NCBI RefSeq assembly: GCF_035084215.1
Contig: NC_090360.1
Coordinates: forward strand, 15,190,001 to 15,254,000
DNA length: 64,000 bases
Source of the DNA: Heptranchias perlo
Lineage: Eukaryota
Direction of reading: 5' to 3'
Under the pieces are notes generated by a model. The model was given only the letters and a program-made list of their open reading frames with translations. It had not been told where the DNA came from and searched no databases. The position numbers were made by a program, and so were the translations under genes. Shown one piece after another: positions 5,428 to 47,692 of the stretch. Positions within the stretch are counted from its first letter, which is position 1, and the number at the start of each line of letters is the position of its first letter.

Positions 5428-5660
5428 TCCAAAGATGTGAAGGCCTTAGAGAGGGTGCAGAAGAGATTTACCAGAATGATTCCAGGGATGAGGGACTTTA
5501 GTTATGTGGATAGACTGGAGAAGCTGGGGTTGTTCTCCTTGGAACAGCGAAGGTTTTGCGAGGAGATTTGATAGAGGTATTCAAAATCATGAAGGGTCCA
5601 TTCAGAGCAGATAGAGAGAAACTGTTCCCATTGGCGGAAGGGTCAAGAACCAGAGGAAAT
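5428..5660 (+). mobile_element. CR1 ORF2 internal fragment
   Basis: ALERVQKRFTRMIPG..LEKLGLFSLE..GDLIEVFKIMKG motifs. Confidence 0.85.
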
Positions 5661-5661
5661 A

Positions 5662-5736
5662 GTAAACAATTTTACAACACCAAGTTATAGTCCAGCAATT
5701 TTATTTTAAATTCACAAGCTTTCGGAGGCTTCCTCC
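5662..5736 (-). mobile_element. Truncated Penelope-like fragment abutting a CR1 fragment
   Basis: 74/75 identical to 47042-47116; lacks the CUGANGA core. Confidence 0.8.
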
Positions 5737-14762: not shown

Positions 14763-14978
14763 CGTTTCTCTTTTCCTTGCCTTTCTCTTTTTCTGTCTCC
14801 CTTTTTCACTTCGCGTCCTGGCTGGGGCTTTTGGATTTTGCAAGCCTTTCTTCTTGCTTTATCTCCCAGATGGTACAACACAGCCAGATACATTGAAGGA
14901 GCTTTGCTCTGCATCTAACTGTGCCATACCTGGCCTGGGAACTTGATGGTGGGAGTTGTAATGTTGTGATTGTTTAGA

Positions 14979-15107
14979 TGTGGAGATGCTGGTGATGGAC
15001 TGGGGTGGACAAATGTAAGGAATCTTACAACACCAGGTTATAGTCCAACAATTTTATTTTAAAATCACAAGCTTTCGGAGATTATCCCCTTCGTCAGGTG
15101 AATGAGT
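14979..15107 (-). mobile_element. Penelope-like fragment with hammerhead motif (15063-15103)
   Basis: Homologous to 47006-47132; minus strand reads AUUCAC-CUGACGA-a-GGGG(auaau)CUCC-GAAA-GC-UU-GUGAU. Confidence 0.75.
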
Positions 15108-45227: not shown

Positions 45228-45655
45228 ATCAGCCTTGGCTCAGTGGTAGAGCTTTTGCCTCAGAGGTAAAAGTTTGTGGGTTTGAGCCTCACTGTAGGAT
45301 GGGAGCATATCATCTAGGCCGACACACCAGTGCAGTACTGAGGGCGCGCTGCCCTGTCGAAGGTGCCGTCTTTGGGATGAGACGTTAAACCGAGGCCCTA
45401 TCTGCCCTCTCAGATATATGTAACTGATCATATAACACTATTCGAAGAAGAGCAGGGGAGTGGCCAACGGTTATCTCTCAACCAATATGGCTAAAACAGA
45501 TTCTCTCACTGTGGGATCTTGCTGTGCACAAATTGGCTGCTGCATTTGCCTACATCACAACAGTGATTACAGTTGAAAAGTACTGCATTGTCTGTGAAGC
45601 GCTTTGGGGCCTCATGAGGTCGTGAAAGGCGCTGTATAAATGCAAGATTGTTCTT
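45228..45655 (+). mobile_element. SacSINE1-like SINE
   Basis: Full length; a partial inverted copy lies at 45848-45990. Confidence 0.85.
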
Positions 45656-46035
45656 TATGCATAATTTACATCAGATAGATCAAAGCTCAAAAGGCAAAAT
45701 TGTTCAAACATCATTAGGCAGACATCTTCTGTGCCATCGTAAAGAGTTAATTTAAATCTACTGAATTTTTATGTGCACACTAATCTGCGAATCTGACTCA
45801 GTACTCATAAATGTAGGCTCTTTGGATTTGGTGCTTCTCCATCTATGAAAGAAAGACTTGCATTTATATAGCCCCTTTCACAACCTCAGGACGTCCCAAA
45901 GCTGTTCTTCTTCGAAATAGTGTCATGGGGTCTTTTACATCTACCTGAGGGGGCAGGTGGGACCTCGATTTAACGTCTCATCCGAAAGACGGATGAAACA
46001 TTCTTGGCCTTCAGCTGTTTATGCATTTTACACAC

Positions 46036-46193
46036 CTTGTCAGAGCCGTAGTTCCCCAGAGAGCAGCTGAAGTCATCATAACCCCAGGAGAAGGTTTTGT
46101 TCCAGTGAGGTGATATCAGTAATTTATTCTTCTCGACAGCAAGAACCCCCTTCTCAGTATGTACGATGTGTCCAACAGCTCCCTTCATTAATT
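46036..46193 (-). CDS. WDFY4: WDFY4-like exon: (E)LMKGAVGHIVHTEKGVLAVEKNKLLISPHWNKTFSWGYDDFSCSLGNYGSDK
   Basis: cacAG / AAG|gtgtgt, 158 nt, phase 1-0; TFSWGxDDFS..LG.YGSDK matches recalled WDFY4. Confidence 0.92.
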
Positions 46194-47005
46194 CTGTGTA
46201 AAACAAGGTAAGTAATGGACTATGAGAGGGAGATAGTGAACTGCTGTAGAGATCCAGAACATGGGACCACCAGCCAGCTGTGCTTTGGCAGTGGTGGGAC
46301 ATGGGCTTGATTCCCCCTGATCTCAGCTGCATTAATTACTGCAGGGAGGGGAGATCAGAGGAGCAATTTTCTTGCTTGCACACTTCCTGGAACTTGGTTC
46401 AGATTACCACTGCTGCCCCATGAGTGTGACTCTCACCTGCCTTCTTGGGTGGGGATGGTGCCAGCTTGGGCAGACCAGATCCTCAAGGAAATAGAATCAA
46501 TACAGATGCCCTCCAGCTTACATCCAGTGATTCCATATTCTCTTTCTGCATCTACACTATCCTCCTTCATTAGATGGCTGAAATGGTCCAGCCAACAAAC
46601 CGCACCATAGAGACCGTCAATGCCACTCTTTGGTTTCCCCATTTTCCCCTATCAGCTCCTGATGGCATTGACCCATGCTGGGTACAGTTCTGCGGGTATC
46701 TAATACCCTCTGATACCTCCTCAAGTGGTCATTCTCCATGTACGAGTATTGATAATGAGTGTAACATGCCCAGTGAAGGGTATCACTCCAAATCTGATCC
46801 TGTCCTCACCATTTGACCATCTAATTTCCAGCGGACATCACTGGATAATGATTACAACCGGGAACCTGGATAATTCCTCATCTCCCTCTGCCCCAACAAA
46901 CAACCAGATCAGGGACAGTGAAGACAATTGTGACACCCCCACTGCCACTCCAGCTGACTCAGCACTGATCGGGGAGTGAGCCTGGGACCTTCCCAGTTAT
47001 ACTGA

Positions 47006-47230
47006 TGTGGAGATGCCGGTGATGGACTGGGGTTGACAATTGTAAACAATTTTACAACACCAAGTTATAGTCCAGCAATTTTATTTTAAATTCACAAGCT
47101 TTCGGAGACTTCCTCCTTCCTCAGGTAAATGTCCTGAAACATTTACCTGAGGAAGGAGGAAGTCTCCGAAAGCTTGTGAATTTAAAATAAAATTGCTGGA
47201 CTATAACTTGGTGTTGTAAAATTGTTTACA
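47006..47230. mobile_element. Penelope-like mini-element with perfect 92-bp inverted repeat and 10-12 bp TSD
   Basis: Arms 47041-47132 and 47139-47230 are exact reverse complements with spacer CCTGAA; GTTATACTGA duplicated at 46996-47005 and 47231-47240; related copies at 14979-15107 and 5662-5736. Confidence 0.85.
47141..47181 (+). ncRNA. Minimal type I hammerhead ribozyme motif (mirrored on the minus strand at 47090-47130)
   Basis: AUUUAC-CUGAGGA-a-GGAG(gaagu)CUCC-GAAA-GC-UU-GUGAAU: stem I, CUGANGA core, stem II, GAAA, palindromic AGCU stem III. Confidence 0.75.
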
Positions 47231-47553
47231 GTTATACTGAGGCAGAGAGGGATTTGATGTCACTCAATGGTTGACCCATGAAGTACACCAGCAAGGCAGG
47301 AGGACTCCTGCTGAATCAGTTTTCTTCTCCGAGTTTAATCTGACACCAGTAAAACGGTCCATTGCGGGGGCGGGGGATGGTTATGAATGTTAGCTCAACA
47401 CTTCTCACCAAGAGTACCACCCTAATTGTGACGATTATTCGATCAGTCTGCACTTGAATGGTTTTTGTTGACTGGTTCACCCACATTCTGTTGACGCATC
47501 TGGCAATGTCAAAATAAGATGTAAAAAGTTTCCTCGGTCTCTGTTTTAAATAC

Positions 47554-47692
47554 CTTTTATTGGAACAGTCGAGGGCTTCAGATTCTGCAGGTGGTAGAAG
47601 AAAGGCTGAGTAGAGGCAGAAGAGGAAGCAGAGTCCTTCCCTGAAGAATGCTTTCCTTGGACAATCCGTGCAGGATGAGCTTTACTGAAAAG
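47554..47692 (-). CDS. WDFY4: WDFY4-like exon (BEACH end/linker): LFSKAHPARIVQGKHSSGKDSASSSASTQPFFYHLQNLKPSTVPIK
   Basis: Not in ORF track. ttcAG / G|gtattt, 139 nt, phase 0-1; BEACH-terminal LFxxxHPxR and PFFY..L..L.PS motifs. Confidence 0.9.

What the first reader, a model, noticed from the sequence alone, without database searches (positions are those of the whole stretch)
46994..47240. Intronic, TSD-flanked Penelope mini-element: perfect 92-bp hairpin with a hammerhead ribozyme motif on both strands
Seen: 225-bp insertion with GTTATACTGA TSD; exact 92-bp inverted arms around a 6-nt loop; each strand reads stem I (AUUUAC/GUGAAU), CUGAGGA, stem II GGAG/CUCC, GAAA, GCUU. Known: Penelope-like retroelements carry minimal type I hammerheads with a palindromic stem III (here AGCU) thought to act as dimers, and often leave inverted terminal arrangements. 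Inference: a very young, ORF-less, ribozyme-bearing element in a WDFY4 intron, nested in an AmnSINE2-like head. The pre-mRNA would hold a hammerhead sequestered in a 92-bp duplex, a possible Dicer/ADAR substrate or a ribozyme active only before the hairpin closes or in trans.
Basis: partly seen in the sequence, partly recalled or inferred. Interest (0 to 1): 0.8.

Follow-up and report, generated by a model that had tools for sequence, protein, structure and literature searches.

The report
Fold-back stub of a Penelope retrotransposon
The hairpin is a very young, doubly truncated insertion of the end of an abundant Penelope-like jumping gene in an intron, its hammerhead motif is predicted to be locked and inactive, and sister copies show a symmetric target site with a 12-base stagger that likely explains how such inverted copies form.

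Summary
In detail: exact 92-bp arms, a 6-nt loop and a minimal hammerhead on each strand. The target-site duplication (TSD) is 12 bp, not 10. It is not a dedicated mini-element. Both arms match the terminal repeat of an intact Neptune-type Penelope-like element (902-aa RT + GIY-YIG ORF) in this genome. The 38-nt tail has 29,015 exact matches, and 49 of 90 sampled insertion ends are such hairpins. The inverted copy plus tail pattern is published, and this scan noted it before in other genomes. The ribozyme is predicted to be trapped: the antisense arm is transcribed first on either strand, and the host intron is spliced out. The sister copies add a mechanistic lead: modal TSD 12 bp; 57 of 57 head-to-head pairs have one tail end and one short end; the host site is dyad-symmetric (CNHTRYY-N12-RRYADNG, held-out test P about 4e-9 per half); 5' ends pile up about 30 nt below a TATA box. 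Likely mechanism: a dimer nicks both strands 12 bp apart, each 3' end primes reverse transcription at its own RNA start site, and the two cDNAs join head to head. Ordinary element, useful mechanistic lead.

The parts
46994..47005 (.). Left copy of the 12-bp target-site duplication CAGTTATACTGA; its last 3 nt also match the element tail
   Evidence: (row L001)
47006..47040 (-). One-sided 'tail': element sequence from about -37 up to the ORF start codon; marks the first inferred RT start site
   Evidence: identical to the pLTR-to-ATG region of intact copy L062
47041..47132 (-). Tail-bearing 5'-truncated copy of the pLTR end (left arm), 5' end at element position -129
47090..47130 (-). Minimal type I hammerhead motif, minus strand (same sense as the host pre-mRNA); predicted cut between 47096 and 47095
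47133..47138 (+). Loop CCTGAA: matches native element sequence -135 to -130 continuing the right arm; head-to-head junction
   Evidence: 98 of 98 nt of 47133-47230 match L062
47139..47230 (+). Tail-less 5'-truncated copy (right arm), ending at element position -38; second inferred RT start site
47141..47181 (+). Minimal type I hammerhead motif, plus strand; predicted cut after 47175
47229..47240 (.). Right copy of the 12-bp TSD; first 2 nt shared with the arm end
47241..47247 (-). Host half-site CTCTGCC (read on minus strand), full match to the family's target half-site
   Evidence: score 5.1 bits
46987..46993 (+). Opposite host half-site, weak match
   Evidence: score about 0; the two halves together lie at the 99.5th percentile of background
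46194..47553 (-). Host intron (1360 nt) of a BEACH/WD40 gene that holds the insertion
   Evidence: spliced join in contigs of 4 of 4 RNA-guessed runs of one sample; Pfam Beach and WD40 on other exons
46910..47001 (+). Old dispersed repeat fragment beside the insertion site; family not identified

Best explanation
This is a very recent insertion of two 5'-truncated, head-to-head copies of the terminal repeat of an autonomous Neptune-type Penelope-like retrotransposon, likely made by twin target-primed reverse transcription, and its hammerhead is predicted to be an inert passenger. Shown: identity to the intact element, one tail end plus one short end, 12-bp TSD, symmetric host site, intronic position. 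Inferred: a protein dimer nicks the two strands of a loosely palindromic site (CNHTRYY-N12-RRYADNG) 12 bp apart. One 3' end primes cDNA near the start codon (giving the tail) and the other about 37 nt upstream. Both cDNAs usually stop just past the hammerhead, probably at the capped 5' end of an mRNA started about 30 nt below the pLTR TATA box. Their 3' ends then join through short homology and repair fills in the hairpin. The stub lacks the promoter and the ORF, so it is likely dead, and in the host pre-mRNA it would form a 92-bp duplex that leaves with the intron.
For: Arms match the pLTR of intact copy L062 (98 of 98 nt; 130 of 130 nt). Its ORF has RT and GIY-YIG (39 of 73 alignment members hit PF01541; best fold match I-TevI catalytic domain, probability 1.0, E 0.012). 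L062 has the same tail + inverted copy + TSD layout with one long arm. 29,015 exact tail matches. 49 of 90 unselected ends are short hairpins. TSD 12 bp in 29 of 54 and 12-14 bp in 47 of 54; 31 of 57 and 54 of 57 in a second set. 57 of 57 analysable pairs have one tail end and one short end. A half-site matrix from 28 sites scores 31 held-out sites on both sides (P 3e-9 and 4e-9), and the signal is lost on shifting by 1-2 nt. 71 of 111 arms at risk end at -120 to -140 (3.05% per nt) against 0.13% per nt at -161 to -400. In 6 of 49 unselected hairpins the arms differ at subfamily-diagnostic sites (10 of 311 columns against 21 of 3050), pointing to two RNA templates. Loop-free junctions centred on AT (L175, L176, L184, L190) are hard to make by a single strand folding back. 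In vitro, an anole PLE protein cuts and extends both strands, starts RT at two internal sites bounding the tail, and is predicted to be a dimer (PMC11167929).
Against: No biochemistry on this family. In the pattern-selected second set only 2 of 57 pairs had diagnostic arm differences (3 of 513 against 12 of 4332 columns), not enriched, though that set was chosen for matching arms. Arm differences could also come from later gene conversion. 43 of 49 hairpins have concordant arms, which single-template fold-back also predicts. The transcription-start reading is indirect. Genome counts peak at -131/-132 in subfamily A2 (6930, 6351, 5250, at most 4485). In B1 the peak at -138/-139 is broader (12271, 6389, 4596, 3200) and confounded by variants. 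Junctions often sit on self-complementary words (AAA/TTT, AGATCT, AT) that could set the exact positions, and about a quarter of arms run past -140. The window's own right half-site is weak. Samples come from the start of one contig only.
Confidence: 0.8

Rival explanations
1. Same origin, but the inverted arm arises when a single cDNA folds back on itself at its 3' end and copies itself, with the endonuclease later resolving the end about 37 nt short of the tail.
For: Arms share subfamily alleles in 43 of 49 hairpins against 64% discordance for random pairs. Some junctions (AGATCT-centred, CC/GG) can be drawn as tiny snap-backs. Craig 2021 suggests the tail results from endonuclease-mediated resolution.
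Against: Six hairpins with diagnostic arm differences. AT-centred loop-free junctions. The short end is as fixed when arms are kilobases long and unequal. Both host half-sites carry the motif.
Confidence: 0.2
2. The 5' ends cluster because RT stalls or is released just after copying the folded or dimerised hammerhead, or because short self-complementary words there favour joining, not because the RNA starts there.
For: The cluster lies 0-20 nt 5' of the CUGA core. Junction microhomologies coincide with the peaks.
Against: The modal end moves from 10 nt to 17 nt upstream of the core between subfamilies whose TATA box moves by 6 nt. Such short words occur all along the element.
Confidence: 0.4
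3. A dedicated non-autonomous mini-element or retrozyme that multiplies as a hairpin unit, with an active ribozyme.
For: Short forms dominate the family. Retrozymes are argued to derive from pLTRs (bioRxiv 10.64898/2026.07.22.740005).
Against: No tandem direct units here. No shared loop or private sequence among copies. No excess of ends at the cut site (5 of 132, 0.54% per nt, against 0.55% per nt next to it). The stub lacks the TATA box. The hammerhead fold (-7.6 kcal/mol) is far weaker than the duplex (-76.8).
Confidence: 0.05
4. The hairpin has been co-opted as a source of small RNA or an editing site regulating the host gene.
For: A perfect 92-bp duplex is predicted in a transcribed intron.
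Against: Zero divergence from the parent element means very recent arrival. Thousands of equivalent hairpins are inferred. No selection signal can be seen.
Confidence: 0.05
5. Assembly artefact.
For: Perfect palindromes can be artefacts, and no contig spans the whole hairpin.
Against: 12-bp TSD, one-sided tail, both junctions present in DNA-run contigs, and dozens of independent loci built the same way.
Confidence: 0.01

Closest known systems
Insertion units of canonical EN+ Penelope-like elements (Penelope/Poseidon, Neptune): inverted 5'-truncated copy plus 30-40 bp tail (PMC8557442; PMC3846280; PMC2377424)
   Same: Inverted pLTR copy, one-sided 35-nt tail, TSD, hammerhead in the pLTR, single RT + GIY-YIG ORF, TATA/Inr-like sequence in the pLTR.
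   Different: Both copies are cut to about 130 and 98 nt. The TSD is narrowly 12 bp, where those papers give 8-10 bp examples or 'variable'. A dyad-symmetric host site was not seen in the text I read.
PAc, Poseidon element of the green anole (PMC11167929)
   Same: Two internal RT start sites bounding the tail; both strands cut and extended; predicted dimer; hammerhead cleavage not needed for insertion in vitro.
   Different: In PAc the ORF starts inside the hammerhead and RT starts within the ORF; here the ATG lies about 93 nt past the cut site, at the tail end. PAc prefers ATT; here a symmetric CNHTRYY half-site flanks an AT-rich 12-mer. This ORF has the CX4CxxC linker that Poseidon lacks. 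The main text does not address inverted copies or TSD geometry.
Minimal hammerheads of metazoan PLEs (PMC4209133)
   Same: CUGANGA and GAAA core, extra base between 9 and 10.1, G10.1-C11.1 pair, palindromic stem III remnant. That paper already notes pairs 100-700 bp apart on opposite strands, inactive monomers and low dimer activity.
   Different: Stem II is 4 bp and stem I 6 bp here. The two motifs are 10 nt apart and mutually complementary.
Non-LTR retrozymes (bioRxiv 10.64898/2026.07.22.740005)
   Same: ORF-less, pLTR-derived, type I hammerhead.
   Different: Retrozymes are direct tandem repeats with two or more same-strand ribozymes; this is an inverted pair.
LINE-1 twin priming (recalled; seen only in the search listing)
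   Same: Both nicked target strands prime cDNA, giving an inversion joined by microhomology within a TSD.
   Different: In L1 the second primer anneals at a variable internal site and sequence is inverted, not duplicated. Here the second start is fixed and both cDNAs copy the same stretch.

Membership tests
EN+ Penelope-like element (parent family) | Single ORF with reverse transcriptase | tested here: met
   902-aa ORFs in L061 and L062, PF00078 at E 3e-10; DKG motif in KPADKGG
EN+ Penelope-like element (parent family) | C-terminal GIY-YIG endonuclease | tested here: met
   No direct Pfam hit on the query. 39 of 73 alignment members hit PF01541; profile hits T4 EndoII at E 4e-4; model pLDDT 91, best match I-TevI, E 0.012, probability 1.0
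EN+ Penelope-like element (parent family) | CCHH motif with two cysteines between GIY and YIG | tested here: met
   VVYLIRCRKGCPRAWYIGET; C56, C60, H96, H102 nearly invariant in alignment A1
EN+ Penelope-like element (parent family) | pLTR direct repeats flanking the ORF | tested here: met
   Repeats 3.08 kb apart in L061 and L062
EN+ Penelope-like element (this insertion) | Inverted 5'-truncated copy and 30-40 bp one-sided tail, flanked by a TSD | tested here: met
   35-nt tail, inverted arm, 12-bp TSD
Neptune clade | CX2-5CxxC linker between RT and EN (shared with Nematis) | tested here: met
   CHGNLCKTC in the ORF; definition from PMC8557442
Neptune clade | Placement in an RT phylogeny | not tested
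   No named reference sequences were at hand; Neptune versus Nematis is not resolved
Minimal type I hammerhead ribozyme | Core CUGANGA and GAAA, NUH site, stems I and II | tested here: met
   87 of 89 arms keep each core; common variation only at N7, loop II and wobble-tolerant stem I positions; no double compensatory change seen; copies are not independent
Minimal type I hammerhead ribozyme | Match to an Rfam hammerhead model | tested here: not met
   No hammerhead family at E up to 10; the motif lacks a closed stem III
Minimal type I hammerhead ribozyme | Self-cleavage as a dimer | not testable with these tools
   No excess of 5' ends at the cut site among genomic copies
Non-LTR retrozyme | Two or more direct tandem units each with a hammerhead | tested here: not met
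   The two motifs are on opposite strands
Dedicated non-autonomous mini-element (SINE- or MITE-like) | Copies share a fixed internal structure and ends | tested here: not met
   Loops, arm lengths and junctions vary between loci; lengths grade up to full-length
microRNA precursor | Match to a curated family above its gathering score | tested here: not met
   Best 68 bits against a cut-off of 140
AmnSINE2-like host repeat | Sequence match to the SINE consensus across the empty site | tested here: inconclusive
   An old repeat abuts the site; 1 of 11 paralogs crosses it, by 5 nt; no library

The most novel reading that the evidence does not exclude
This family records the Penelope insertion reaction in thousands of copies. 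A dimeric RT/GIY-YIG protein reads a dyad-symmetric host site, makes a fixed 12-nt staggered break like a transposase, and primes two cDNAs from two different fixed RNA sites, one per DNA end. Both run off the mRNA cap as a 'strong-stop'-like product. This would explain the class's inverted repeats, one-sided tail and mass of short hammerhead-bearing copies with a single mechanism.
Probability: 0.5. Interest if true: 0.62.

Novelty: new member of a known kind. Interest (0 to 1): 0.38.

Why it matters
The locus itself matters little: it is one of an extrapolated 16,000 or so similar hairpins in this genome. The value lies in the family statistics. How Penelope-like elements make their inverted and tailed insertions is named as an open question in PMC8557442 and is only partly answered in vitro by PMC11167929. 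The fixed 12-bp stagger, the symmetric target site and the strict one-tail/one-short-end rule give exact substrates and predictions for that assay. The family also loads the transcriptome with perfect duplexes of about 90 bp, which could matter in bulk for RNA silencing and editing; this is untested.

Tried and rejected
1) A fixed 5' start at GGACATTTAC seen in the 30 best hits was an artefact of my query; unselected copies vary. 2) Templates cut by the hammerhead: no peak of ends at the cut site. 3) A cap-derived extra G at 5' junctions: not visible by eye in the few informative copies; not counted. 4) Rfam gave no hammerhead hit. 5) Pfam on the endonuclease alone gave nothing, a sequence search of solved structures with the whole ORF gave one weak RT hit at E 0.65, and the protein atlas gave no answer. 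6) Presence or absence in related organisms: contigs of three other organisms did not bridge the site, so no verdict. 7) No RNA holder is listed on record; the runs laid are guessed RNA and contigs only, so start sites, editing and small RNAs could not be read. 8) Positions -1 and +12 of the target motif are biased by how the TSD is defined; they were left out of the held-out test. 9) Searches of this scan's notes by sequence, by place and for the symmetric site returned nothing. 10) No complex prediction was run: the full dimer exceeds the size limit.

Full report
1. Observation. The window holds exact 92-bp inverted arms (47041-47132, 47139-47230) around CCTGAA; the fold is -174.6 kcal/mol, z -26.6. 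Each strand reads stem I AUUUAC/GUGAAU, CUGAGGA, an extra A, stem II GGAG/CUCC, GAAA, GCUU, with the predicted cut after 47175. The duplication is 12 nt (46994-47005, 47229-47240), and a 35-nt extension lies on the left only. Contigs of 4 of 4 runs guessed to be RNA, all from one sample, splice 46193 to 47554 with CT..AC ends, so the element lies in a 1360-nt intron of a minus-strand gene that is spliced out. Other exons hit Beach and WD40; the name WDFY4 and the guess that the host is a shark are recalled, not tested. Contigs of one DNA run carry both junctions without mismatch at flank depth; that run may be the assembly's source, and no contig spans the whole hairpin.

2. What it is. A 38-nt piece of the tail has 29,015 exact matches in the 3.25-Gb genome, and 0 for the reversed control. 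Two fetched loci hold intact 902-aa ORFs between direct repeats 3.08 kb apart. The ORF has RT (PF00078), DKG, a CX4CxxC linker and a CCHH-bearing GIY-YIG domain: 39 of 73 alignment members hit PF01541, and the predicted fold (pLDDT 91) best matches I-TevI (E 0.012, probability 1.0; no match reached E 0.001). By the definitions in PMC8557442 (passages) this is Neptune- or Nematis-type; no tree was made. The window's arms equal the terminal repeat of L062 at 98 of 98 and 130 of 130 nt, and L062 has the same outer layout with one arm full length. Positions below count from the A of the ORF's ATG.

3. The family. I took the first 100 tail matches on contig C1, and dropped 5 duplicates and 5 that continue into the ORF. 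Of the 90 left, 49 are short hairpins, 5 have a more distant inverted arm, 15 run on beyond the 420-nt reference, 10 are single copies with a TSD and 11 are unclassified. Scaling 49 of 90 to 29,015 gives about 16,000 hairpins, a rough extrapolation from 8.9 Mb of one contig. Among the first 100 matches to one subfamily's hammerhead, neighbours within 7 kb are head to head in 27 of 33 cases. So the hairpin is the ordinary product. This agrees with print: PMC8557442 (passages) and PMC3846280 (parts 1-3 of 5) describe the inverted 5'-truncated copy and 30-40 bp tail. PMC4209133 (parts 1-2 of 4) notes opposite-strand hammerhead pairs 100-700 bp apart, inactive monomers and low dimer activity. Five earlier notes of this scan reach the same verdict in other genomes; I had reached it before looking.

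4. The ribozyme. Among 89 arms that reach -128, CTGANGA and GAAA are each intact in 87. Common variation is confined to N7, loop II and stem I positions that stay paired through G-U; there are no double compensatory changes, and the copies are not independent. The motif is thus conserved in the parent lineages. In this copy it is predicted to be inert. On either strand the antisense arm is made first; computed pairing to it is 0.95-0.999 at all six transcript lengths tested; and the hammerhead fold is -7.6 against -76.8 kcal/mol for the duplex (equilibrium folding of growing prefixes, not kinetics). 5' ends are not enriched at the cut site (5 of 132, 0.54% per nt, against 0.55% per nt at -97 to -119). 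This fits PMC11167929 (parts 1-2 of 4), where cleavage was not needed for insertion.

5. Mechanism, from sister copies. (a) TSD: 12 bp in 29 of 54 and 12-14 bp in 47 of 54 copies with an inverted arm (one duplicated locus counted twice). A second set of 60 head-to-head pairs from two sister subfamilies, picked from hammerhead match lists, had 57 analysable: 31 at 12 bp, 54 at 12-14 bp. (b) Ends: all 57 have one end near the ATG and one short end, mostly -33 to -39; never two of a kind. (c) Host site: pooled half-sites read C N H T R Y Y on both sides in mirror image around an AT-rich 12-mer. A matrix trained on 28 sites scores 31 held-out sites above background on the left (P 3e-9) and right (P 4e-9), with the boundary-biased position excluded, and shifting by 1-2 nt removes the signal. 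The window's site has one full and one weak half. (d) Templates: arms share alleles in 43 of 49 hairpins (random pairs differ in 64%), but 6 differ at subfamily-diagnostic sites (10 of 311 columns against 21 of 3050; P about 8e-5). The pattern-selected set shows only 2 of 57 and no enrichment. (e) Several junctions are loop-free palindromes on AT or AGATCT. Together with the in vitro findings for the anole element (both strands cut and extended, two RT start sites bounding the tail, predicted dimer), these point to twin priming by a dimer at a 12-nt staggered break. That step is inferred. Single-strand fold-back remains possible for some copies.

6. Why so short. 71 of 111 arms at risk end between -120 and -140 (3.05% per nt), against 0.19% per nt at -50 to -89 and 0.13% per nt at -161 to -400. 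A TATAAAT lies at -161 in the window's subfamily and at -167 in B1, and the modal ends are -131 and -138, 29-30 nt downstream, the usual TATA-to-start distance (textbook knowledge). Genome-wide nested counts for sister subfamily A2 are 6930 (-128), 6351 (-131), 5250 (-133) and at most 4485 (-141; shorter pattern): a loss of about 3, 9 and at least 2% per nt. For B1 they are 12271 (-133), 6389 (-138), 4596 (-140) and 3200 (-146): about 12, 15 and 6% per nt, confounded by sequence variants. This fits RT running off the 5' end of the element's own mRNA. A stall after the hammerhead or junction microhomology could give similar peaks, so I put it near even odds. PMC3846280 notes TATA and Inr-like motifs in a rotifer pLTR; PMC2377424 (passages) reports a TATA-less internal promoter for Drosophila Penelope.

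7. Novelty. The element is a new member of a known kind. I found no description of a dyad-symmetric site, fixed 12-bp stagger or twin-priming account for these elements in searches, in the passages read (also PMC9977147, PMC8969392, PMC12910113), or in this scan's notes. The library lacks most subscription papers (for example Arkhipova 2006, Pyatkov 2004, and the dimer-cleavage paper I recall as Lunse 2017, none of them read). I did not see the supplements of PMC11167929, whose Figs S1-S2 may bear on cut geometry. The retrozyme preprint was read in parts 1-3 of 5.

8. Verdict. Interest 0.38, carried by the family-level insertion geometry, which is directly testable.

Noticed in passing
window 5658-5736: Second, shorter family copy on the minus strand (97% identical), tail-less and cut off inside stem II of the hammerhead
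   Followed up: partly
window 14977-15104: Older family copy on the minus strand (88% identical) with tail and a CTGACGA core, no inverted arm seen
   Followed up: partly
window 45236-45992: tRNA-like head (Rfam tRNA, 33 bits) followed by inverted repeat arms of 77 and 51 nt at about 82-84%, likely two oppositely oriented SINE pieces in the next intron
   Followed up: no
L061 (G000:C1:3124500-3130000): Intact partial-tandem element preceded by at least 1 kb of a further ORF end, with a different subfamily's inverted pair inserted about 300 nt downstream
   Followed up: partly
L144, L169, L174, L042, L123: Hairpin centres hold 40-170 nt of non-element sequence, some with short internal repeats, suggesting templated filler during joining
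   Followed up: no
L031, L040, L034, L057: Independent insertions hit the same positions of other repeats (L034 and L057 share the TSD GCAGTTATATAA), as expected from a sequence-preferring nuclease
   Followed up: partly
L062 positions about 1190-1220 (element -70 to -26): Predicted long stem-loop in the element RNA whose 3' side contains the short-end start site, a candidate protein-binding structure
   Followed up: no
L058-L060, L063, L064, L071, L123 (C1 about 3.93-4.01 Mb): Family copies lie inside a GA-rich tandem array and have been duplicated with it
   Followed up: no
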